Shown here: positions 1 to 64,000 of the stretch, piece by piece
Layout of the letters: every line of letters starts with the position of its first letter
How positions within the stretch are numbered: position 1 is the first letter of the stretch
Assembly (NCBI GenBank): GCA_964016885.1
Contig: OZ024741.1
Coordinates: 64,604,001-64,668,000 of the forward strand
From: Eledone cirrhosa
Taxonomy: Eukaryota
Direction of reading: 5' to 3'
DNA: 64,000 nucleotides
The notes under the pieces: generated by a model
What the model was told of the DNA's origin: nothing
The model's database searches: none
The model's input: the letters and a program-made list of their open reading frames with translations, nothing else
Position numbers and translations under genes: made by a program

Positions 1-797
1 GACCACCTGGGACCAACTCGAGTCCAGCACCAGCTCAAGGAAGTCATTTGCACTTGGCGGCCAACGAAAGGTCTCCCAGTCAATCTCAGGGTGATTGAAG
101 TCACCTGCAATGAAAACATAAGTGGCTGTCTTCCTGGCAGCAGCTCTGAGGATATCACAAAGTTGAGTGTCCTGATGGTAATTTGGGGGACGGTAAACGA
201 CTCCAAGTAGCAGTGTTGACATGGTCATACGTATATCGCAGAAAAAAACTTCCTGCTGTGATTGGTTCAAATCAGCACAAGGAATTGCCGACAGATTTGA
301 CCGAACGTAGACCATTACACCACCACCACGACGATTAATACGGTCTTTACGAAACAGGTTGTAGCCAGTCATGCTGAAAACCCCATCACAGAGTAAGGGA
401 TGTGCCCAAGTTTCCGTGACTGTAATGAAGTCCGGGTTGATACTTTTGACGTAGGAGTCAAAAAGATGAATCTTATTGCATAGACTACGTGCATTCAAGG
501 ACAACAGTTTGTACTTTGATTCCAGTCTATGATTATGTGCAGGGGATGGCAGGTTGTTCTGATTTAGTTTCCCAGAGTTTTTTCAGTTTCTTTATTGTCA
601 GTTGTTGTGGGTACACTGTTTTCAGACCAGCTGGTGTCTCTTTTCCATGATTCGCCAGCCTTAACAAACCTCCATATCTGCCCATCATCTCGTAGGCTGA
701 AGCTTTCATGTTCTGCCGAGCTGCGGTTTAGGGAAGCTGCAGCACGCAACTTTGGGCGGACATCAGGTGGAAGACCAGGACGTGTTCGGAAAGCATA
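1..797 (-). mobile_element. CR1-like LINE, 5'-truncated within ORF1: ORF1 C-terminus (stop at 566-564) plus intact start of the ORF2 APE endonuclease, running off the window
   Basis: Uninterrupted frame 582 to <1 encodes LNARSLCNK..ITVTETW..GYNLFRKDRINRRGGGVMVYV..GVVYRPP..IAGDFNHPEIDW, the APE motifs of CR1/L2-group LINEs. ORF1 ends ...KTLGN*. Confidence 0.9.
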
Positions 798-846
798 TAA
801 ACACTGTTTGGAAACATTGAGGAAATAAATATCAAATATAACTTAC

Positions 847-889
847 TTTCTGAGGTAGAATTTTGTCTGCAATCTTCTTTTTCTTTTTT
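847..889 (-). CDS. SMARCD1: BAF60/SMARCD exon (KKKKKIADKILPQK), 43 nt, phase 2/0
   Basis: Acceptor aaaacCAG, donor AAA|GTAAGT. Peptide matches the conserved SMARCD motif AKKKKMADKILPQR(IRELVPES). Gene continues beyond the left edge of the window. Confidence 0.92.
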
Positions 890-7827: not shown

Positions 7828-9878
7828 CTGGAAAAATACCGGTAGATATAAAAGACGAAGGCATTCAGTAAGTTGAATGTAAAAAAAAAAAAAAGAAAGA
7901 AGGCTGAAGAAGCTGCACCAACGCAAGTAAATCCAAACAGTTAATAACAAATAACTCCAAATAATCAATAGTTGTTTTAATAGAAGGAAATTTAAATGAA
8001 GTAAGCTTGTGTAGTTACAAATAACTGCTCACTTATTAACTGATATAACTAGACATAGTTTCTGGTTTTTGTGTTGTGTATTTTTTCAGAACTGAGACAA
8101 TTTTGCAATTGGTAGTAGAGCTGAGTTTGTTTAATACTGTTAAATAACAAGCTAAAGAGTGAAAAATCTAGGTAGAAGTTTCAATTTCACTAAGTGGAAT
8201 AGAGAAAAGGTTGAGATAAGGAAGAGGGGAAGGAGAGAGTTTAGTGATTTAGTTAAGAAAAATAATACTATATTGCATTTTTTTTATATATAAAATTTTA
8301 TTTTCTCTGCTTTTTTTTTAAATTCATTTTTATTTTATATTTTTTGATAAATTTATTCCAGTTGCCATTTAAAAAAATATCATGAAGTCTTTACAGACTT
8401 AAAGGATAATAAGTTTTTAACAAACATTCCATTTAAAAGGCAAGGGGGCATACTGCAGCTATACTGCCAAGTGCGGAGGACATACAGACCTCTTGTCAGA
8501 AAACTATTAACTAATGTTCCCTTTAAAATAAAAAGAGAGCAATGATAATCGAAAGGAGTGAAACATACTTCAGCTAACTTTTACCAAGCAAAGATCTACT
8601 AATATGGCAAATATTTGAGTACAACTCAGACAAGGTCTCAGTTGAACGCAATTTAAATAGTATCAGGTATAACATATAAATATACACATTAAGAACAATA
8701 GTAACATTTTCAGATATAGGTTATTAATCAAACCTAGTTTAACATGTTCCAATACTCCTTTGTCATATCTGTAAGTTGTTCACTTACAACTTGTAACAGT
8801 TAATAAGTAAAATCTAAATTACTAGGTGGACAGGGACTTTCTTTAGTTTCATCTACAGACTATCAAGTATGATTAAATGAGTTTATTTTGTCACACAGCT
8901 AGACTGTCCATTATCATCCTAATCACCTAGTCATTTCATTGACATACTGTTATACAAGGAAACAAAAAGTGCCTTTCTCATCACATTGACCAAGTGTCAA
9001 TTTCAGACTAGTGACCAAATTTCATAGACACGTCTGATGTCTTTTAATTTCTCAAGAGGCCTTACAATAAAACAACACCTCAATGTGGTGGCTTAAAAAT
9101 TAAGTCAATGACTTAGATATAAATATTTCAAAAGGCACTTCATCAGAAAAATAAGCAAAACTAAACGTTAGCTAGAAACTAGAATTTGAATGTGCTATAT
9201 TGTGTCTGGGAATCCAACAATTTATCACTGGGCTACATTGACATCTTTGATACAATGTAAGAAAATCTTGTTTTAATAACCTTAAAATTGCCACTCACTC
9301 TTCAACTTCTCTTTCCTGACCCTCTTTGTTTTCTCTCTACTCCTTTCTCTCTTCTTTAGCTCTCTTTCTGTATTTAAAGAGGTGATAGTATTTTCAAACA
9401 AACTATCGTAGAAAAAAAACTTTTCAAGAGTTGATCCACAGATAACAATTAGAAGCAATACTTCAAGACAGAGCAGAATTATAGCAAAATTATGAAATCA
9501 AATTATCAAAGAAATGCTATTAAATGGAGAAATGGTTTCAATTTGTTTTGAAGAATGGATATTAGATGCATTAGAAATAACCTTTTTTTTTTTCTTCTTT
9601 TTTTTTCTTTTTAAATATTACGTTAGAAACAGAGAAAAGTCAGTTTTCAACTTTAATGCCTAGTGAATATGTAAGAAGTATGCAAAGAATGAACAAGAAT
9701 TTATATGAATATAGGAATTTATAGAAATATGTATTTATAATATAAAGTGTTTATATATATATATAGATGGTTTCAATTTGACCCAGGCATGTAGGTGCAA
9801 CCAACAGTGCATTATATCTTATTCTAGAATATGAAAGCATTTTAAAATTTATTGGAAATATTTTCTATTTTCCTTTAA

Positions 9879-16840: not shown

Positions 16841-16873
16841 TTGAGGTTCCAGACTCTCGGGTCTTGCTATTGG
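16841..16873 (-). CDS. SMARCD1: Candidate 33-nt cassette microexon ((A/T)NSKTRESGTS), phase 1/1
   Basis: Poly-U tract, CTTAAT branch-like site, UGC at -17..-15, acceptor tttgTAG, donor TCAA|GTAAGT, ~71-nt AG-free zone; open in phase 1. Confidence 0.7.
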
Positions 16874-31870: not shown

Positions 31871-34800
31871 CAAGAGTTGTTGGTTTAAGTCAAACTTTGA
31901 GAGGTTCAAAATCAGAATTGTAAAGGGTGAAAATAAATATTTTCTGCTAGATATCAAGCATATCCATCTTTGTATTTTTGTGTGCTAGTTTGGCATGAAA
32001 GGAGAATAGTTTATGATCATTAAATTATCAAACAAAAAGTTTTAAAAAACCCACTGAATTTAGCATGTTAACAGGCAAGAAAACAGATAGGGGCTTTGCA
32101 AACCATACTTGCACACAGCTACAGACGATAGCTTTGCAAACTTTAAATATATGAATAAAGTTGTTAATAATATTAATGATTGTGATAGTGGTGATGATTT
32201 CTTCTGAAGGGACAACGTCACAAATTTTTTAACGTTGAATATGAGTGTGTGACGTTCATGCCTTTCTCTAGGGCATTAGTGATGTGAGTGAAGTGAATTG
32301 GCTTTAACCGAGAACCAAAACCACATTGCAGACTTGGCTCACTGGGGAGCTTACCTCTAGCTCAAAGGCACTCATCACAATAATATAAGAATAATAACAA
32401 ATGACAGTCAAGATAGCACAAAAGGATGGAATTAATTGGTAAACATACGAACCCTGTCCACGCCCAACCCCCTCCCAGAATGGCAAAACAGTCCAGGAAC
32501 AAGCCAGCATAGTTATGGTGCTATACCTTTTTCCCTTTTTCGCATCACCAATGTCATATAGGTGGGACTTGAAGCTACAATACATAAAGCAAACTTCAGC
32601 TGTGATAGGGGATTTTTTTTTTAGAGGTATGTGCATAAGCTAACAAATTAATTTACAAAATAATTTTTTTATAATTTTACACAAGCAACTGGCATACCAC
32701 TGGTAATGGGCTGCACAAAAATATTGCAGTAACTGGACTCCCCAGCAAAATGCAAAGGGTGCCAAGAATTTACCTCTTGCTAGCACCATCTTAAAAAAAA
32801 TATATATATATTTAAATTAATAAATTGGTTTTAAATTTTGCATGTGCTATAAAATGAAAATCAAAAGTGGTATAGGAAATTAAAACTGAATTCCTAAACT
32901 AAAACTTATGACTTTCTATCCCCAAATATATATCTTTCATGTTAATGAATGTATAATGAAAATGTTTGGGTATTTTTTGTTAAAGAAATCTGGAGGCAAG
33001 CCAGGTGCAGGGAAGGTATTTAGACAACCTAACAGACTAGTACATGACAGGTCCTTATTTTTCCAACCCTATCAAAATCAAAGAGGACAGACGGAAAAGA
33101 AAAGTCACCACTGACACGAGTTCTGAGATAGTACAGAAACCACCATCATTATTTTACATTCACTTTTCCAATCAACTAATCATCATCACCATCTTCATCT
33201 TTACGTCCACTTTTCCATGCTGACATGAGTTGGACAGACATTTTCACTCTTTTAGTCACTTCTTACGACACACAGGGATACATTGTGTCTATGCCAGCAT
33301 GTCATGTCATAAATCTAAAAATCTTAAAGTCATTAACTAAACAAAATAATTGTATCAACCAAAATGCCAATAAAATATACACAAACAGACAGATAACAAA
33401 TATTGAAGAAATTTCTTACTCACAACTAGTAATGTCATGTAAATGCTGATAGAACATTGAACCAGAAAATATGAGTGTAAGTTCAGCTCCAATATGCATG
33501 GATCAATAAATAGATTGTTGTCATTAGGCAGTATATCTAAGTATTTCAGCCTAAATATATATATGCTTTACACTCGCACACACAAATCTATAATTTTTTT
33601 TAAATGGCACAAGGCCACAGAGTATATAAGAATGGTACATAGCAACACAAAATTAAGTACTTTTGTACTTTAATCTCTTTGCTTTACCATTTCTGTCAAC
33701 AACATCCACTACTGTGTCCTTTCCTTAATAACAATGACTAGAAATAATTTATAATTAAGACACCTAAACACAAATCAAATAAATACTGCATGTATATCTA
33801 AGTAAAGGCACAGAACAAAATAAAGATATAACATTGTTTGCTAAAGCAATGGAAGGAATTAATACAAATAATAAAGCAGATTCACTGAGTAAAAGAAAAA
33901 AAAAAGAAGAGAAAATGAAGAATGACTAGCCAATACAAATAAGCATCCTAACAATCGTAGATCAATAGGCAGAAAAATAAATTATTCTCATCTCATTAAC
34001 ATTAATAAATTAGTTTCCTTAACCCTTTTCATACGAACCTACCCTTTCAGCAGCATATTTCAAAATGAAATACCCTGGATTTTAGTTAATTAATGAAGAA
34101 TGTTGAGAGATTTATTCTTTTTTTATTTCATTATTAAGATGGTATTTGTAACATAACCTAATAAATAGTTTTTATATGAAATTATGTTAGAAGGTTATAA
34201 TTTAAATAGGAGCACTTTAAAATGGGAGGGTTTGTTTCATAGAACCTGAAGAGGTTTGGGACAAGTTGGTATCAAAAGGGTGAAGATTACATGTGGATCT
34301 ATGACACAAAACCAGTTGTTTTATATTATTGATATTTAAATTAAAACCTTCCATCATAATGTCATGCATGAACCTTTAAGTTATGTTCATACCAATAAAT
34401 GTTAGTTATTTCACTAAATCCCACCAAATATTTTCAAAATTAATTATAACAAAAAGAGTATTTTTGCTGAGATTATGCTCCTTCATCTTATCTCCAAACT
34501 ACTAAATGCTATACTGAGTGTGGTAACACAACCAGAGTACCTCTACCAAATAACTTCATTTGAAGCAAAAGTTACCAGTCTAATAATACTACAGTTGCAG
34601 CTGTATTGACGTTATACAGTTCATATATACTCTACATGTGTATGTACATACACACACATATACATACAAAGTAGTAAAATAATAAATACCAAGACATGGC
34701 TATATAAAGATAACATGGTTAGTTTTCACAAAAGGCCTGCATGTCACAGCTAAAGAACAGACAATTACCTAGTAGTAATCAAAATTGAGTTATTAACTTG

Positions 34801-36689
34801 ATTCTGCCAGGAACTAACCACCTAGTTACAACAATCACCACAATATTCATGTATACAAGATAGAGAGAAAATAAAACACATATACAAGAAAAAAGCATAT
34901 AGCCATCACAAAAGCATATACCATTACTCTGGAACTGTTAAATGAAAGCAACTCTGGTGTGCTGTTATTAAGTTTTCCTAAATCAGAAGCTCATATTACC
35001 CTTTTAATACCAATCCACTTAAAACTGGCCCTCGTTTTGATACAAAACTGCCCATTTTAACTTTCCATCATAATTTAAAATAATTTTTTGTTAAATTATG
35101 TTTCAAATATTAGCTTACTAGCGAAATTGTTAGTTATTTTATTAAATTTCTCCAATTCTTTTTTATTTTTAAAATTATTTCAAACGCCATAGTTAGAGTA
35201 TTTTATTAGACACAGTAACGAAAGGATTGCTTAGGCCAATGTTTCTATTTAAAAGCTGTGGTAGAAAGCAGATGAGGTTAACATCACTGTCCAGTGATAT
35301 TAACCTATTACAGTCAACATTTCCAAATGTCCTTATTCCTCAATAAGGTGTGTGGTATAATATGGTGAGACCCAGAAGCCCATAAACTTACTGGAATATT
35401 ATGACATAGTCATCAAATAATCATTCATTATCTTCTCCAGAATTGACTGCCAGCAATATATGCATGGGCCCATAATTCCAGATGAAATTGTAGAGTCATC
35501 ATAGTGACATACTAGGGCATTTTAAACTTGGTGGAGCTCATCCCCAATTCATATCTGAACACAGCTGATTTCTTCCAGAGAAGGATGGAGGAAGTGAGAT
35601 ATAAGAGAAGAATTGGTCCCAGTAATGGATGGGTACATTTTTTTTATCGACCTTGAAAGGATGAAAAGCAAAGTTGACCTTGGTAGGTTTTGAACTCAGA
35701 GCGCAGACAGTTGGAACAAATATCACAAAGCATTCTATCCAATGTTCTAGTGACACTGCCAATTTGCTACCTTGCCAGCAATGTACTCCAAGACAAATTG
35801 AAACCAGCAGTACAGAAAGGAACTTCTCAACTAATTGTCTACAAGATAAATTCTTTGCACACTCAAGTTATTTAGCCCCTCTACAATAGTAAATAGAAAA
35901 ACTTTGATATGTTTGTATCAGGGCAACTACAAATATTTCTTGGCATTGGCTAATACCACTGAACTGATAGGTGGTAATAAATAAAAACCAACCATTGGGA
36001 CTATGGTTTATAACACAAGGGAGCCATTAAACTGCTTGTAACCAGCACACTGCCAAGTGGATGCCATTACTTACAATAATATTCAACAAATGATAAGTTA
36101 TAGATATAACATGCAGTCTTATGAAGTTTTGAATTTGTCTGTGTGTATGTGTGTGTGTGATTGTTAAAACTTAAAGACTTACATTTAAAAGAAAAAAATG
36201 TAAACGAGAGGCCGCATGCCTATTCACAAAAATGTGAACAAAAAAAGTCATTACTTTATATGTATGTTTGTATGTGTGTGCGTGTGTGAGTATGTGTGTG
36301 TGCGTGTGTGTGTCAGTGTGTATGTGTACATATATAAATATATACATGAGGAAAGAAAACAAGAAAACTTAGAGACTTGAGGTTATGCCGTTTGCATGCA
36401 AAAGATATTCAACAGAAATTCATTGGAAACTGAAGGATTACTTTCACCTAGAAAGGTAGTAAGAAAACTGATAGATGAAGGCAAAAGAAAGAGAAAAGAG
36501 AAGATGGAAGTAAAAGGATAAACACCATATTTGAAATACAGGGAAATATCATGAAATTAAAATAATAAAAATAACAATAATAATAATAGTATGTGGAATA
36601 TATATATATATTAAAAACAAGAAAATGTTAAACGAATATTGCTAACTAACTGACAAGCAATAATATAGCATAATAATGGAACCACTTAC

Positions 36690-36798
36690 CTGGATAACCA
36701 TGTGTAGGAACACCTGGTCCACCGGCTCTCATTCCCATCGGTGGCGGCGGAGGCCCGCCACTGCCCATCTGCGGTCCAGGGTATGGGGCCCGAGGTCC
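36690..36798 (-). CDS. SMARCD1: BAF60/SMARCD exon, Pro/Gly/Met-rich (GPRAPYPGPQMGSGGPPPPPMGMRAGGPGVPTHGYP-), 109 nt, phase 0/1
   Basis: GC-rich island; acceptor tttcatttattttgaAG and donor CAG|GTAAGT. Composition resembles the PGM-rich N-terminus of SMARCD proteins. Joins in frame to exon 1783-1672. Confidence 0.85.
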
Positions 36799-38132
36799 CT
36801 TCAAAATAAATGAAAAAACATCTCCCACTAGACAGCCACAAGTAAGGTTGATAAGAGTTACAACATGGTGTATCCAAATGACCTCTTAACATACAATTTT
36901 AGAAATCAGCTTCAGCTCAAAACACTTTCTTGATTGACTAGTTGTAAAACAAAGCAAAGCAACTGGAACTCTAATTATTTAAATCCATTTTACACATGAA
37001 CTATGTGTACACATACATCATCATCACTATTATCATTTAACATCCATTTCCCTGCTAGCAAGTCAACACAGAATCAGTAGTCATATGGAGCTACTGACCT
37101 CTCAAATAGTCCAAGGGCCTATATCTTACATACATTCCCATATTCTGCCCAGTACTCAGACAGACCAGAGACCTGCATCTCGCCTACACACATGTATATA
37201 CATATATATCTGTAGGTATATGTGTCTGTGTGTATGTTTTTTTTGTGTCCTAGTCATCATTAAGACATCTGGCTAGGAGAAAGTCACTGATATAAAACCT
37301 GTGACTTCGTTTGCATCCAATGGTGTAGATGAGTTCTACTTTTGGGGTTCAGAGTGTGGAATTGGCCCCGAGCAAAGTCTTTCCTCACTTAAAAAAGCTT
37401 CAAGACAGGCATCGCTTGATATGTGACATTTTTTTGCAATGCATGACATTGCTAGCCATAGACAAGCCCCTAGCAGGACTGAAAAGCTACGTCCATGATG
37501 CTAATGCTTAAGTATCAAGCGATGGCATGATAATCTTCATTCCTATGTCAAATCTCAGTGTGTGACGACTCATGGAAAAGGGACATAAAACAGTGTTGAT
37601 GATGATGATACCCTAACCCATTGAAGCATGGAAAAATGGATGTAAAAATGGATGTAAAAATGATAATGCTATAATTATGAGTCAATTTTTCACAAATAAA
37701 TTTCTATAGAATGGGTATAAAGTTGATTGAATCAACTCCATTATAGACTTGGTACTTAGTTTTTTGGCTCTAGAGATATTAAGTAAAGAGAGGAAAGTAA
37801 GTGCTGTTGGGCACTTAACCTTTTCATTACCATATTTTTAATTAAAGATACTGCCTGTGATAATTTTCAAATTATTTTGAAAATAATCAAGAATTTTGAG
37901 TGACATAGTAATATAACTAACTTCTTCATAATTAAGCTGGTCAGTCATATTTTTAACTGAAGTATATTTGTGATCTGACAAACCCTGTATACAATTAGGT
38001 ATATGACAGGTGATACATTATATAATTATTTAATTGTTTATTTAATTAATTTTCTACTGCTAACAAAACTCAATGCGTCGGGAACAAATTTTTTTTTTTT
38101 TTAAATATATCACCAATCCTTTCCTTATTTAA

Positions 38133-39767: not shown

Positions 39768-40467
39768 AATACTTCTGGAGTACACCTGTGAAAGCGTTTT
39801 AACTTATTTCTAGCCAACCAAGAAAATATTCTGCCAGATATCAATAAATTGGTTATTTCAGATATAAATAACAATCAAAATCAAGCACAATTTTAAAAAA
39901 AAAAAAACCATTAATAATCAGTTGCTTTTTTACAGTTAAGAGTACTTTCTCTCTCACATGTACACACACATATACATACATACATACATTGTCTTTGTTT
40001 CACTCACACATCTCTTTCTCGGTGACCATAGTGTAACATTAAGACTATAAAAAACAAACTAGTGTTCAGAAATCTTCCTTACCTCCAATAACTTATGGAA
40101 CCAAAACTGAAAGACCTTAACATGTACTCAATTTCTAATTTAGGCTTAGGGCCAGCAATTTGAGGGGGAGGAGAAAGTCGATTAAATCGACCCCAGTGCA
40201 TTACTGGTGCTTTATTTTATCGACCCAATAAGGATGAAAGGCAAAGCTAACCTCGGCGGAATTTGAACTCAGAATGTAAAGGGCCGAACTCTGCCGCAAA
40301 GCAAGGAGTTCAACACCCTACCGATACTGCCAATCCAATAATAATAAATAGCAATCAATAATTGTAATAGGGAATGTTAAATAGTAAAGATTTTGCAATC
40401 CTCCACATCCCAAACTTTTCTACTCTCTCTCTTTCTCTCCATCAATAACACTAACAAATATACTTAC

Positions 40468-40473
40468 CTCAAT
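40468..40473 (-). CDS. SMARCD1: Candidate 6-nt microexon (ATT GAG = Ile-Glu), phase 0/0
   Basis: Minus strand reads ...ctcatttaaaaattggcTGCattaCAG|ATTGAG|GTAAGTA. Consensus donor, CAG acceptor, UGC at -10..-8, ~42-nt AG-free zone, and it lies in a phase-0 intron. Confidence 0.45.
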
Positions 40474-41009
40474 CTGTAATGCAGCCAATTTTTAAATGAG
40501 ATAAAATAAAATACATACTGGCCTGATACAATTAAAATAATGATATACAGACCAATAACAGTAAGATTAATAGATAAATAGAATGATCATAAAAGTACAA
40601 AATTTTTATATATACAAAAAAAATTATATTCCTACACTTCATCACATTCACTTCAGCTAATAAAGTCAATCTGGGTGTAAAGGGACTTAACTGAAGTGAA
40701 ACCAAATACTATAATTTTGTTTGTTTAATACACTGATTCTGCCAATCCATGACAACACATACCACACTGTATATAACAATTGTGTGTGTGCGTGTGTGTG
40801 CGCAGGTATACACATTGCACACACACACTCATCTGATGAGCTTCTGCAGTTTTTTGTCAACCAGATTTCACTCACAAGGTTTTAGTTGATGTGAGGTTAT
40901 AATAGAAGACACAAATCTGGGGATGACAGAAGACCTAAGTCTCAGACATAGTAGTAGTACTGAACACAGAATGATGTCCAGTATAGGTGCAAATCAACAC
41001 CTTTTAAAA

Positions 41010-41560
41010 AAACATGAGCTTGGAAGGAGTTCTAGGGAACCAACGATCTGATCAGGAGAAACTGAGTATAATGTTTAGTGCAAGGCCAGAGGAAGTTGAA
41101 CACAACATATGTGTTGAGAGGAAAGAGATGAACGAGTCTAGAAAGCTCCGAAAAAGAGGTAGAGAGGGAGAGGAGATAGCATGTCTGGAAGCCAGAGATT
41201 GGAAAGTGTCTTTGAATGACTTTATACCAATTACCTGAGTGGCACATCAGTGTCAGTATGAACAATAGCAACACTGTCCCAAATACTGGGGAAATACTCC
41301 ATTGTGGGTCTCACCTGAGCCTTGTAGAAGTCCATTAGTTGTTGGAGCTGAAGAGATGGACCAATCACTGGGATGTAATCCTAGCTATGGTGAGAATGAG
41401 TGTACTCCATAAGAAAGCATTGGCAATTTCAAGATCTAGCATTTGGCATGATTACACAAGCAGTAGTCAAATGCTTAAGAAGTGTGAAGTGCAATGATGC
41501 TTTCTTGAAATGGAAGGGGGGGTGAAAGAGACAAGACTGGTGCGACCCCCATTGGAGGAT
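41010..41560 (-). mobile_element. Degraded CR1-group LINE, region C-terminal to the RT
   Basis: Minus-strand peptides LQWG...LVSF, QLMDFYKAQVRPTMEY..IW, FQSLASRHAISS and WFPRT match the post-RT region of CR1/Zenon-like LINEs; frameshifted. Confidence 0.65.
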
Positions 41561-42452
41561 ACTTTCATGGTTTCTGTTCATAGAATAAATGCAGGAGGCT
41601 TCACATGAGGTATCAAGACTGCTTGTGGATAACACTTGGTTAGAGAAGGTGAATGCATTTATCTATATCACAAGGCATTTTGTCCGATGCTCTCCCAATG
41701 CTGACAATCCAACCACCACTCGTAGTAGTAATAGCAGCAGTAGTAGTTATACAAGAAGAAAATTTTTTGTTAAATTAATGAGAATTTTTATCATTAAACA
41801 TTTGTCAGTTATTTCAGTATACAATGTAAAATACTTTAAAAAAAGTGAAATGACCAGTCAAAACAATGTGTATCAAACGAAACTGATATTTGAAAATAAT
41901 TTAGTGACAAAACCTGATTTAACATATATTATTTCTTAATTTGTACCATATGAAACCAAATTAGCAAGACATTATTAAAAAATACAAAACAACACTACAA
42001 CTGCATCACATTAAAAATTAAAGTCTTTACTCAAATATTGCAATTTTCTTTTCACATTGATCTGTCCACCAGTAAAGATATTACAAACATCTGAATTAAA
42101 GAATGCCTTTTAAATATTTTCTGCTAAACCGTTACCAGATATTAAGAGTTAATTATAGGCTTCTGACAAAACCTGATTTAGCTTTCAACTACTCAAGCAT
42201 GACTAACTACAGCTCTCCAACAGCGCTATTTATGAAAAAAGATTCCTCTATATAATTGTAAACTTTTTATACTCTTTAACCTTTTTGTTAATATATTTCT
42301 AATGAAAATCACTTGTCTATGATTTTCAAATTTTGAACATAATCAAGCATTTGGAGAGACTAAATAATATAATATTGCTTAGTAAATATAAAACATGATG
42401 GAAAATAAGGGTGCCAGTTAAACTGTATCAGATTTAAGGCATCTTATTTTAA

Positions 42453-47456: not shown

Positions 47457-47540
47457 CTTCGGATGATTGATAACGCCACTATCCTTTTCCATCGAGTTCT
47501 TGTGGAAATTGGGCTGGCGAAACCGCTCCTGCTGAGCCAT
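47457..47540 (-). CDS. SMARCD1: BAF60/SMARCD probable first coding exon (MAQQERFRQPNFHKNSMEKDSGVINHPK), phase 0 end
   Basis: ATG at 47540-47538, 28 open codons, then donor AAG|GTAAGA (47456-47451). In-frame TAG 30 nt upstream of the ATG. Locally CpG-retaining. Phase 0 matches the next exon at 36798. It could be one of several alternative first exons. Confidence 0.7.
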
Positions 47541-47560: not shown

Positions 47561-48292
47561 GTGTCTGCTAGCAGATTCAATATATTCTCTCTTTCCCACT
47601 CACTCTTTTATACGATATATGCATGGGAGGGGTACACATTTACATACACATTATAAAAAAAACAAACTAAAATCAAATAGTCTACATAAATGATTTAGCA
47701 TAAAATGAATCGTGCCTTTAAATTTATCGTTGCTTCTATTCATACTTGGTGGGATGAAGAGAGAGTCAGGAAGGAAGCTTTGCTAAGATGAACTCAAAAT
47801 CTGTTTGGTTAGAACAGAAATTGAGTGAACTTGAAAGCAAATATTTTCAAGTTATAGAGAAATAACGAATGTGATTTTTTATTTTTCCACATCTATAAAT
47901 GAGATTTTATATATATATGCATATAAAAATGGTTTACCGAAGGGAGCCAGAGTTAAATAAGGTATTCAAAACATTAGTAAAGAAGGCACATATTCATTTC
48001 ATATAAAAATGACTTCTTCAGGAACAGAATGTATCATTTTTTTTAAATCATCAGTACAATCCTCATGATTTCAAATGAATGAAACAGTCAAGTAGAAGTG
48101 ATTGATATATGAGAGAGACTGACAGATACATATATATATATATATAAATATATAAATACATATATATATATATACATATATATATAAATATATAAATACA
48201 TATATACATGTAAAGTTATATTTAAAATTGTTGGGTTACAACTAGTAAATATTTATAACTGATATAAAAGCACTCGACAAATATTTGGAGTA

Positions 48293-48599
48293 TATTTACA
48301 ATATTAAATAAATGGAAAACTATATTTATAAAACCATATTTATTTCATTATATATATTTCGGGGATATCATATTAACAATATGCTATGCCTTCATCAGAC
48401 AAAATACAATATAAACAGTTTTATAGATAAATATATTCGACATACGGTATGTCGAATATATTTATCTATAAAACTGTTTATATTGTATTTTGTCTGATGA
48501 AGGCATAGCATATTGTTAATATGATATCCCCGAAATATATATAATGAAATAAATATGGTTTTATAAATATAGTTTTCCATTTATTTAATATTGTAAATA
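48293..48599. repeat. Perfect 307-bp palindrome (153-bp arms, 1-nt centre at 48446)
   Basis: Identical ORFs on both strands (48312-48497 + and 48395-48580 -); centre ttcgacatac-g-gtatgtcgaa. Confidence 0.95.
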
Positions 48600-49087
48600 C
48601 ATATATATATATATACATATATATATAAATATACATATATATACATATATATATATATACATATATATATAAATATATAAATACATATATATATATATAC
48701 ATATATATATAAATATACATATATATACATATATATATATATACATATATAAATATATAAATACATATATATATATATACATATATATATAAATATACAT
48801 ATATATATATATACATATATATATAAATATACATATATATACATATATATATATAATACATATATAAATATATAAATATATAAATACATATATATATATA
48901 CATATATATACAAATATATAAATACATATATATATACATATATATACAAATATATAAATACATATATATATATATACATATATATATAAATATACATATA
49001 TATACATATATATATATATACATATATAAATATATAAATATATAAATACATATATATATATACATATATATACAAATATATAAATAC

Positions 49088-49138
<51 letters not shown>

Positions 49139-49171
49139 TACATATATATATATATACAAATATATAAATAC

Positions 49172-49222
<51 letters not shown>

Positions 49223-49225
49223 TAC

Positions 49226-49294
<69 letters not shown>

Positions 49295-49349
49295 TACATA
49301 TATATATATATACATATATATACATATATATATATACATATATATATAT

Positions 49350-49396
<47 letters not shown>

Positions 49397-49541
49397 CATA
49401 TATATATAAATATATAAATACATATATATATATATACATATATATATAAATATATAAATACATATATATATATATACATATATATATAAATATATAAATA
49501 CATATATATATATATACATATATATATAAATATATAAATAC

Positions 49542-49576
<35 letters not shown>

Positions 49577-49581
49577 AATAC

Positions 49582-49612
<31 letters not shown>

Positions 49613-49665
49613 CATATATATACATATATATAAATACATATATATGTATATATATATATAAATAC

Positions 49666-49699
<34 letters not shown>

Positions 49700-49713
49700 A
49701 CATATATATATAC

Positions 49714-49764
<51 letters not shown>

Positions 49765-49807
49765 CATATATATACATATATATACATATATATACATATA
49801 TATATAC

Positions 49808-49858
<51 letters not shown>

Positions 49859-49921
49859 CATATATATATACATATATATATATATACATATATATACATA
49901 TATATACATATATATATATAC

Positions 49922-50002
<81 letters not shown>

Positions 50003-50009
50003 TATATAC

Positions 50010-50088
<79 letters not shown>

Positions 50089-50138
50089 CATATATACATA
50101 TATATTATATACATATATATACATATATACATATATAC

Positions 50139-50173
<35 letters not shown>

Positions 50174-50203
50174 CAATATATATATATATACATATATATA
50201 TAC

Positions 50204-50266
<63 letters not shown>

Positions 50267-50279
50267 CATATATATATAC

Positions 50280-50332
<53 letters not shown>

Positions 50333-50341
50333 CATATATAC

Positions 50342-50422
<81 letters not shown>

Positions 50423-50452
50423 CATATATATATACATATATATATATATACA
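48600..50452. repeat. (TA)n/TACA satellite block
   Basis: Direct reading; TAAA variants cluster in the first 1 kb. Confidence 0.95.
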
Positions 50453-50454
50453 TA

Positions 50455-51075
50455 GAGATAAGAGGGATCAGATGTTGTTTACTCGAGAGAAGGCTACGTT
50501 GGTATGGACACGTGATGCGCATGAAAGTCGATAGCTGTATAACAAAGTGCAGGGCAATAAAGATAGACGGTAGTCACGGAATAGGCAGACCTAGAAAAAC
50601 CTGGGACGAGCTGATAAACTCCGACCTCACACACTTACACCTCTCCAAGACAATGTCACTGGACCGAGACCTTTGGCGGTACTCAGTAACAGAGAAGACC
50701 CGCCTTGCCAGTTGGCATCTCTAACAAAATACACCCCGTCCCGCCACCACCCCCACCCCATCCACACCACCCCGTTCTATGTAAAGTTATGTTGGTGCCG
50801 CGCCATCCAGGCCGAAACAAATGAGATCGTGTAGGTGTCACGACAAAAAAACACACAGTCCACGCTGTAATGTGGCCGTGTAGGCAACACGGTAAAAACC
50901 TCCCAGACCCACACTGTAAGTGTGGTTGGTGTTAGGAAGGGCATCCAACTGTAGAAAACCTGCCAGACAGTCCTATGCGAGCAAGACAATCACTCTTGCC
51001 TCAAGTGGGACTACCCCCGTCCAAACCCATGCAAGCGTGGAACACGGACGTTAAACGTTGATGATGATGATGATG
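50455..51075 (+). mobile_element. RTE-clade LINE 3' end (ORF C-terminus, 3' UTR and (GAT)n tail)
   Basis: [12 protein letters not shown]...[15 protein letters not shown]...DRDLWR, stop at 50722-50724. Tail GGACGTTAAACGTTGATGATGATG; CpGs retained. Confidence 0.9.
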
Positions 51076-59477
<8,402 letters not shown>

Positions 59478-60090
59478 AGATATGGGCTACAACACATTCA
59501 TTGAAAATACTATATTGGCTGAAAGGCATTTTTGTAAAAAGACATATTCATAGAAAAACCAAATTAGTTGGAAGCCAAAATTGATCAAAAACATATTCAA
59601 CATCAAACATTGAATGATATATTTATAGAAACACAGAAATCTATCAAAACTCAATTATTTTTAAATAATGTAATTCTAAAATGAAAGAAATATCTTTTAA
59701 ATAAAATATAATTTCAATTTAGTTTCATGCTGTGTTATTTTTCTCAGAAAATAATTGTAAATAGAAATACATCAAAACTTAATCTCAACTTAATCTCAGG
59801 CGTTTTTTAGTATGTGTTCGATATGTTGAGAATTCAACACAGAATAGCTATTTTAATATTCTAATAGAGGCACACATCCACAAACCTTATGGGCAGATTA
59901 TAGTTGATTAGATCTACTAAAAGGTTTGCCTGGTACTTACTTTGGAGACACATAAAGGATGATAAAGATAAAATTGAAGAGGGAAGAAATTTAACCAGTT
60001 ATTCAGTGCCACACATAATTCTGTTCAATGCTTTATGAGTTCATCACTACACCACTCACTGCTTTGGTAAAATTTTCTAACAGAGGCACT

Positions 60091-60290
60091 NNNNNNNNNN
60101 NNNNNNNNNNNNNNNNNNNNNNNNNNNNNNNNNNNNNNNNNNNNNNNNNNNNNNNNNNNNNNNNNNNNNNNNNNNNNNNNNNNNNNNNNNNNNNNNNNNN
60201 NNNNNNNNNNNNNNNNNNNNNNNNNNNNNNNNNNNNNNNNNNNNNNNNNNNNNNNNNNNNNNNNNNNNNNNNNNNNNNNNNNNNNNNNNN
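60091..60290. other. Assembly gap (200 N)
   Basis: Run of N; the round length suggests a scaffolding join of unknown true size. Confidence 0.99.

Positions 60291-64000
<3,710 letters not shown>

What the first reader, a model, noticed from the sequence alone, without database searches (positions are those of the whole stretch)
40455..40520. 6-nt Ile-Glu microexon candidate with UGC at the canonical position
Seen: U-rich tract, CUCAU branch-like motif, ggcUGCauuaCAG|AUUGAG|GUAAGUA; frame-neutral in a phase-0 intron. An exon this small is missed by standard aligners and gene finders. Caveat: a consensus donor with a nearby CAG can arise by chance in tens of kb of intron, so this needs transcript evidence.
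Basis: partly seen in the sequence, partly recalled or inferred. Interest (0 to 1): 0.7.

Follow-up and report, generated by a model that had tools for sequence, protein, structure and literature searches.

The report
Shrunken octopus microexon beside TG acceptor
In an octopus chromatin-remodelling gene (SMARCD/BAF60), a 21-base optional exon annotated in related octopuses lacks its normal start signal here and is likely cut down to 6 bases, a form not seen in the one transcript data set available, while that data set shows the next exon being joined at a rare non-standard TG splice signal.

Summary
The motif is real: minus strand, exon 40473-40468, in SMARCD/BAF60. It is the last 6 nt of a 21-nt cassette exon annotated in three related octopus assemblies (HPK-LAVLQIE-GPR in 13 of 19 informative proteins; IE alone in 0 of 19). 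Here the 21-nt exon's acceptor reads AA, confirmed by contigs of two samples, so the internal CAG is the only canonical acceptor. The UGC sits on the one residue that differs from relatives (Ala for Val), so it is not shared. A 6-nt, eMIC-type neural microexon is my best guess (0.45); a dead exon (0.33) and use of the AA (0.15) remain open. Inclusion is not shown: the one run with spliced junctions joins the upstream exon to the next exon without it. Two junctions carry an extra AAG (Lys), explained only by a GT-TG intron (TTTTG|AAG|GGA). The TG is unchanged in a second octopus species, and +K forms occur in relatives' proteins. TG tandem acceptors are known in human (CNBP has the same motif) and fly. 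Verdict: genuine but modest.

The parts
47457..47531 (-). 75-nt cassette exon QERFRQ...NHPK of SMARCD/BAF60, upstream of the candidate
   Evidence: 24 of 25 residues match octopus proteins; spliced in X4 record 7; skipped in X4 records 5 and 8 and absent from Sepia proteins
40468..40488 (-). Homologue of the 21-nt cassette exon LAVLQIE of related octopuses; reads LAALQIE here
40489..40490 (-). AA where the 21-nt exon's acceptor AG would stand
   Evidence: X1 contig 40320-42012 and X4 contig 40319-40852 have 0 differences
40496..40500 (-). CTCAT branch-point-like motif; A at -24 from the 6-nt exon but only -9 from the 21-nt start
   Evidence: sequence; function inferred
40481..40483 (-). UGC at -10; spans the Ala-Ala codons, where relatives have Ala-Val, which cannot spell UGC
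   Evidence: inference from codons
40474..40476 (-). CAG, the only canonical acceptor before the donor; AG-free zone of 42 nt
40468..40473 (-). Candidate 6-nt microexon ATTGAG (Ile-Glu); inclusion not observed
40461..40467 (-). Donor GTAAGTA shared by the 6-nt and 21-nt readings
36802..36803 (-). Non-canonical TG acceptor, 3 nt upstream of the AG
   Evidence: X4 junctions decoded 30 of 30 letters; only GT-donor solution; unchanged in X1, X4, X6
36799..36801 (-). AAG (Lys), exonic when the TG is used; its AG is the canonical acceptor
   Evidence: +K and -K forms in relatives
36690..36798 (-). 109-nt exon GPRAPY...HGYP
32527..32574 (-). 48-nt cassette exon (ASSPTY...), AG acceptor
   Evidence: 15 of 16 residues match relatives
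16841..16873 (-). 33-nt cassette exon (ANSKTRESGTS), TGC about 17 nt upstream
   Evidence: 11 of 11 residues; both included and skipped in X4
9299..9367 (-). 69-nt basic cassette exon (RELKKRE...)
   Evidence: 22 of 22 residues
7789..7827 (-). 39-nt cassette exon (SVQSRQ...)
   Evidence: 13 of 13 residues
1672..1783 (-). Exon GMPRTG...ISKP
847..889 (-). Exon KKKKKIADKILPQK; the gene continues below the window to the SWIB domain and stop codon

Best explanation
This site is the 3' end of a small cassette exon of octopus SMARCD/BAF60 that is annotated as 21 nt in related species and is likely spliced here as a 6-nt Ile-Glu microexon in a minority of (probably neural) transcripts, while the next exon is entered at a non-canonical TG acceptor that adds one Lys. 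Shown: the homology, the AA in place of the upstream AG, the TG-derived junctions in one spliced data set. Inferred: without an upstream AG, the CAG 15 nt further on is the first AG after the CTCAT branch point; a 6-nt exon would be skipped by default and included only where the eMIC form of Srrm234 binds the UGC; the TG is chosen at the second step while the AG 3 nt downstream is recognised at the first. The effect would be 1-3 residues in the low-complexity N-terminal arm, one of about ten optional pieces there.
For: 13 of 19 proteins with the upstream exon carry LAVLQIE at this place, matching 40488-40468 in 6 of 7 residues with the donor at the exact end. AA is real in two samples. Around the CAG: 42-nt AG-free zone, 51% T, branch-like A at -24, UGC at -10, donor GTAAGTA; long AG-free zones, UGC near the 3' site and a CUAAY branch point are listed for fly eMIC exons (PMC8797185, passage), and UGC was found in 74-79% of human SRRM3/4 microexons (bioRxiv 10.1101/2024.09.17.613571, passage). 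Both differences from relatives (no upstream AG, presence of UGC) point the same way. An SRRM_C match passes the Pfam cut-off in this genome (29.3 bits, cut-off 27). TG: the mixed loose end at 36802 equals the computed mix of upstream-exon+AAG and PQF-exon+AAG in 30 of 30 letters and in agreement 0.62, and none of the other 41 ordered pairs of candidate junctions does; no AG-AAG-GT/GC microexon exists in the intron and GT-TG is the only single-intron solution with a GT donor; the exon is single-copy.
Against: No transcript with IE was seen: X4 record 7 runs through the whole upstream exon into the next exon with no branch. IE alone is in 0 of 19 informative proteins of relatives although they keep the Gln codon. 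The UGC is not conserved in relatives, so it may be a chance change; CTCAT departs from CUAAY and the UCUC-rich tract of fly eMIC exons is missing. Loss of an acceptor more often gives plain skipping than a tiny exon (general knowledge). I could not read the relatives' DNA at this place, so their AG is inferred. X4 is one sample of unknown tissue, and contigs drop minor variants, so it cuts neither way strongly.
Confidence: 0.45

Rival explanations
1. Dead exon: the lineage lost the acceptor of the 21-nt cassette (AG to AA) and the exon is now always skipped; the CAG, the donor and the UGC are leftovers or chance.
For: No inclusion in X4; IE alone never annotated in relatives; the exon is optional in relatives (6 of 19 skip it) and absent from 10 decapodiform-type proteins, so loss should be cheap; octopus introns here differ by only about 10% between species (X6 record 32), so 6 of 7 residues can persist without selection.
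Against: Perfect donor kept; UGC at -10 arises from the one coding difference; strict motif in only 6 of 200 shuffles (defined after the fact).
Confidence: 0.33
2. The 21-nt exon is still used, through the AA itself: either a non-canonical AA acceptor that leans on the CAG 15 nt downstream, as the TG leans on its AG, or an AG made by A-to-I editing. Relatives might then have AA too.
For: The same gene uses a non-AG acceptor one exon on. Fly has 3 annotated GT-AA introns, all with a nearby canonical alternative, and 10 genes with more than one non-canonical intron (PMC4528330, passage). Non-AG sites lie within 28 nt of an AG in human (PMC2374985 section 12); here 15 nt. RefSeq models of two relatives carry +K forms, so they may admit non-AG sites. 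The frame is open (LAALQIE).
Against: No such transcript in X4. The AA is unpaired locally (pairing probability about 0.2) and the best intronic duplex (-36.9 kcal/mol) is no better than those of 15 control stretches (-30.6 to -58.8). The X4 intronic contig shows no A-to-G there (contigs drop minor variants). [quoted passage not shown] CTCAT is too close (-9) to serve this site. The one ENA model with LAVLQIE lacks K (P0026), as expected if its pipeline allowed only AG (pipeline rule recalled).
Confidence: 0.15
3. The AA is an allele or an assembly slip, and other individuals have the AG and the ordinary 21-nt exon.
For: The site lies in a run of five A; SNPs masking an AG explained many apparent non-AG sites in human (PMC2374985 section 7).
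Against: Contigs of two samples (X1 = S1, X4 = S2; same study) match the window with 0 differences across the site. X1 may be the source of the assembly, so it rules out a sequencing slip more than it adds an individual.
Confidence: 0.07

Closest known systems
21-nt LAVLQIE cassette exon of octopus SMARCD1 models (XP_014770233.1 of O. bimaculoides; XP_036362436.1; CAI9728118.1)
   Same: Same intron, same donor, 6 of 7 residues, frame-neutral, optional.
   Different: Here the upstream acceptor reads AA, the Val is Ala (creating UGC), and only a 6-nt canonical reading is left; no IE-only form among 19 informative proteins.
eMIC/SRRM3-4-dependent neural microexons (fly Srrm234, PMC8797185; human, bioRxiv 10.1101/2024.09.17.613571)
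   Same: 3-27 nt, frame-neutral, UGC close to the AG, long AG-free zone, strong donor; SRRM_C match in the genome.
   Different: Neural inclusion and eMIC dependence untested; UGC not conserved in close relatives; no UCUC-rich tract; branch motif CUCAU rather than CUAAY.
TG alternative 3' splice sites in U2 introns (PMC2374985): CNBP intron 3 TTGTTG,AAG|, GNAS intron 3 CTG,CAG|; Drosophila bifid (PMC4528330)
   Same: GT donor, TG 3 nt upstream of a weak AAG acceptor, pyrimidine at -3 and purine at +1, both forms made, conserved intron flank.
   Different: A mollusc; the TG form looks the larger one in contig depth (29.3 and 33.2 against 11.7, not quantitative), as for fly bifid but unlike CNBP (25% of ESTs).

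Membership tests
eMIC-dependent neural microexon | Exon of 3-27 nt with canonical AG/GT ends, frame-neutral | tested here: met
   CAG|ATTGAG|GTAAGTA in a phase-0 intron
eMIC-dependent neural microexon | Included in mRNA | tested here: inconclusive
   Not in X4 contigs, which drop minor variants; 0 of 42 proteins
eMIC-dependent neural microexon | Neural-specific inclusion | not testable with these tools
   Only one spliced data set, tissue not on record
eMIC-dependent neural microexon | UGC near the 3' site and long AG-free zone | tested here: met
   UGC at -10, AG-free zone of 42 nt
eMIC-dependent neural microexon | UCUC-rich tract and CUAAY branch point (fly) | tested here: not met
   Tract is U/A-rich with a single UCUC; motif is CUCAU (criteria)
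eMIC-dependent neural microexon | Conservation of size and UGC across relatives | tested here: not met
   Relatives have 21 nt and Val where the UGC lies; read from proteins only
eMIC-dependent neural microexon | Regulator present (Srrm234 with eMIC region) | tested here: met
   PF15230 match, 29.3 bits, positions 12-55 of 67, one exon
eMIC-dependent neural microexon | Inclusion depends on eMIC | not testable with these tools
   Needs a minigene or knock-down
TG alternative 3' splice site | Transcript junction maps to a GT...TG intron | tested here: met
   Two junctions in X4, decoded from a mixed consensus 30 of 30
TG alternative 3' splice site | Canonical AG within 28 nt that is also used | tested here: met
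   AG 3 nt downstream; X4 record 5, depth 11.7
TG alternative 3' splice site | Not a genome error, SNP, paralogue or hidden 3-nt exon | tested here: met
   TG in X1, in the unspliced X4 contig and in organism C; single copy; no AG-AAG-GT/GC in the intron. A heterozygous TAG allele dropped from the contigs is not formally excluded
TG alternative 3' splice site | Conserved site and flank | tested here: met
   X6: no listed difference in 36799-36848 against 5 in the exon; Leu, not a NAG codon, precedes Lys in unspliced ORF P0042
SMARCD/BAF60 gene | SWIB domain and full-length match to named SMARCD1 proteins | tested here: met
   PF02201 at 72.9 bits; exon-by-exon tblastn; names given by sources

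The most novel reading that the evidence does not exclude
Octopus SMARCD uses two non-AG acceptors in a row: the TG shown here, and the AA of the 21-nt exon, spliced either as a true GT-AA intron leaning on the CAG 15 nt downstream or after A-to-I editing in neurons, so that one donor yields a 21-nt and a 6-nt microexon from an AA/AG tandem.
Probability: 0.13. Interest if true: 0.7.

Novelty: new member of a known kind. Interest (0 to 1): 0.35.

Why it matters
If the 6-nt form is used, two close octopus lineages differ by a 21-nt against a 6-nt version of one exon, with the UGC present only in the short one: a natural before-and-after for how an exon enters or leaves the neural microexon programme, testable with one minigene. 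The TG acceptor extends a rare splicing exception, described in vertebrates and fly, to a mollusc, where it may be the main site; pipelines that allow only AG would miss the +Lys protein. The protein change itself is small (1-3 residues in an arm that is predicted disordered in human BAF60A; PMC6862534, passage).

Tried and rejected
Run search on the last exon and 3' UTR: no holder on record as RNA; X4 was recognised as transcript data only by its spliced junctions. Laying 11 kb with 4 of the 9 runs was flooded by repeats; its difference table was cut, so organism C's letters at the candidate could not be read. X5 and X7 gave nothing on the exon: no test. Assembly slip at AA: rejected. Editing partner for the AA: none better than controls. 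Separate 3-nt AAG exon, shifted donors, paralogue: rejected. Two further protein searches found only two short unspliced ORFs. A second cluster look-up listed the same 15 of 25 members; 10 were never seen. Papers: no SMARCD microexon or cephalopod TG acceptor appeared in the listings of searches 'microexon+SMARCD1', 'microexon+octopus' (19), 'cephalopod+RNA editing+splice site+acceptor' (46), 'BAF60+alternative splicing+N-terminal+cephalopod' (60), 'non-canonical splice+GT-TG+invertebrate' (61), 'octopus+non-canonical splice+acceptor' (71); the library lacks most subscription papers. bioRxiv 10.64898/2026.09.05.749416 has 0 hits for SMARCD or Bap60 in its main text; its supplements, and the 2019 eMIC paper (not held), could list this exon. 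The data archive of PMC9699675 gave no readable text. Earlier scan notes: none relevant.

Full report
Observation. The motif is present on the minus strand: CTCAT at 40500-40496, TGC at 40483-40481, CAG at 40476-40474, ATTGAG at 40473-40468 and GTAAGTA from 40467. It lies in a phase-0 intron of 10,658 nt between 47457 and 36798. A strict motif defined after seeing the site occurs once in the intron, never on its antisense strand or in 100 kb outside the gene, and in 6 of 200 shuffles; a looser donor gives 2 hits and 20 of 200 shuffles.

Host gene. The gene is the SMARCD/BAF60 subunit of SWI/SNF: one SWIB match in the genome (72.9 bits), exon-by-exon matches below the window, and relatives named SMARCD1 by their sources. 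Its N-terminal part is a chain of optional pieces: two first exons and a 27-nt PQFIQASYR exon above the window, then exons of 75, 21 or 6, 109, 48, 33, 69 and 39 nt inside it. In human BAF60A the N-terminal half is predicted to be disordered and residues 43-167 bind nuclear receptors (PMC6862534, passage).

What relatives have here. Of 42 proteins fetched, 19 carry the 75-nt exon; 13 of these continue LAVLQIE, 6 skip it, 0 have IE alone. They come from three assemblies: XP_0147702/XP_0528263 (named O. bimaculoides by a source), XP_0363624 and CAI97281 (O. sinensis and O. vulgaris by my recall, not named in the call). Ten of 25 members of the largest cluster were never listed. So the donor is a real exon end. 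But the two letters before the 21-nt start are AA. A DNA-like contig (X1, 40320-42012) and a contig of a second sample (X4, 40319-40852) match the window with no difference, so AA is no assembly slip. I could not read the relatives' DNA, so their AG is inferred.

Transcripts. No run was on record as RNA. X4 shows spliced junctions and exon depth of 138 and 33 against 3-12 in unique intron, so I treat it as RNA of unknown tissue. On the 109-nt exon it gave 8 contigs. Upstream partners: the PQF exon at the AG (depth 11.7), unspliced intron (11.7), and two contigs breaking at 36802 (33.2 and 29.3). The tool printed only a mixed consensus for those two. Among 42 ordered pairs of candidate junctions, only upstream exon + AAG with PQF exon + AAG reproduces it, in 30 of 30 letters and with the same agreement of 0.62; the record length of 131 also equals 27+75+3+26. 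No contig holds the 6-nt or the 21-nt exon. Such contigs drop minor variants, and about 49 of 123 depth units at the boundary are not accounted for by listed contigs, so this is not proof of absence.

The extra AAG. The genome reads TTTTG|AAG|GGACC. The only single-intron solution with a GT donor ends in TG; no AG-AAG-GT or -GC exon exists in the intron; the exon is single-copy. The TG is in X1, in the unspliced X4 contig, and in DNA of organism C, whose contig has 7 differences over 36630-36848, 6 listed, none of these in the 50 intron letters before the exon against 5 in the exon; a neighbouring intron flank differs by roughly 11% (record 32; my hand estimate from a cut table, giving p of about 0.02 for at most one change, though acceptor regions are generally better kept). 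+K forms occur in 19 proteins of two assemblies; an unspliced ORF with Sepia-like residues reads Leu-Lys-Gly-Pro-Arg, and Leu cannot be a NAG codon. The 10 decapodiform-type spliced proteins lack K, so use of the site may differ by lineage. TG acceptors are a known exception: 36 human genes, always beside an AG within 28 nt, CNBP with the same TTG,AAG motif (PMC2374985, sections 7, 11, 12 read); 23 GT-TG and 3 GT-AA introns in fly, with a TG as the main site in bifid (PMC4528330, passages).

Mechanism and odds. With no upstream AG, the CAG is the first AG 24 nt after the branch-like A, behind a 42-nt AG-free zone, with UGC at -10 and a full donor; these are features of eMIC targets (PMC8797185 and bioRxiv 10.1101/2024.09.17.613571, passages), and an SRRM_C match passes the cut-off in this genome. 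I put a 6-nt, likely neural exon at 0.45, a dead exon at 0.33, use of the AA (non-canonical or edited) at 0.15 and an AG allele at 0.07. These odds are judgement. Editing has no structural support and is reported to alter octopus splice sites very rarely (PMC9699675, passages and part 1 of 3 of its tables). The direction of change (21 to 6 nt or the reverse) is unknown. The TG acceptor I hold at about 0.9.

Novelty. Both elements are new members of known kinds. I found neither in the listings of six searches; closed preprint supplements and the unavailable 2019 eMIC paper may bear on this. Interest 0.35.

Noticed in passing
window 36803-36799 (-): Non-canonical TG acceptor 3 nt upstream of the AG, used in two of three spliced upstream junctions seen in X4, conserved in organism C; adds a Lys.
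   Followed up: yes
window 32574-32527, 16873-16841, 9367-9299, 7827-7789 (-): Four more frame-neutral cassette exons (48, 33, 69, 39 nt) in the next 35-kb intron; the 48- and 33-nt exons have TGC about 17 nt upstream; the 33-nt exon is about half included in X4 (depth 54 against 52).
   Followed up: partly
L011 4643-4617; L014 8138-8082 and 7338-7291; L003 about 4396-4354 (-): 27-nt PQFIQASYR exon shared with Sepia, two alternative first exons, and a short optional exon (GPSVYNRDRKSVDR) after the SWIB domain that some decapodiform-type proteins lack.
   Followed up: partly
L004 8500-7180 (-): Two AATAAA signals after the stop (near 8300 and 7185); X4 holds 0.14 of the words of this stretch, which fits a short 3' UTR ending at the first.
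   Followed up: no
window 48000-64000: About 16 kb of very A/T-rich simple repeat (G+C mostly 6-12%, strong skew) with a 200-N gap at 60091-60290, inside an intron of the gene.
   Followed up: no
window 1-842 (-) continuing into L002 10000-7750; L003 7585-5051: LINE-like retroelement fragments (endonuclease and reverse-transcriptase-like frames, recognised by eye) in SMARCD introns, in the sense direction.
   Followed up: no
G000:C22:28167743-28167880 (L013): Exon matching Pfam SRRM_C, the likely eMIC region of the octopus Srrm234 gene.
   Followed up: partly
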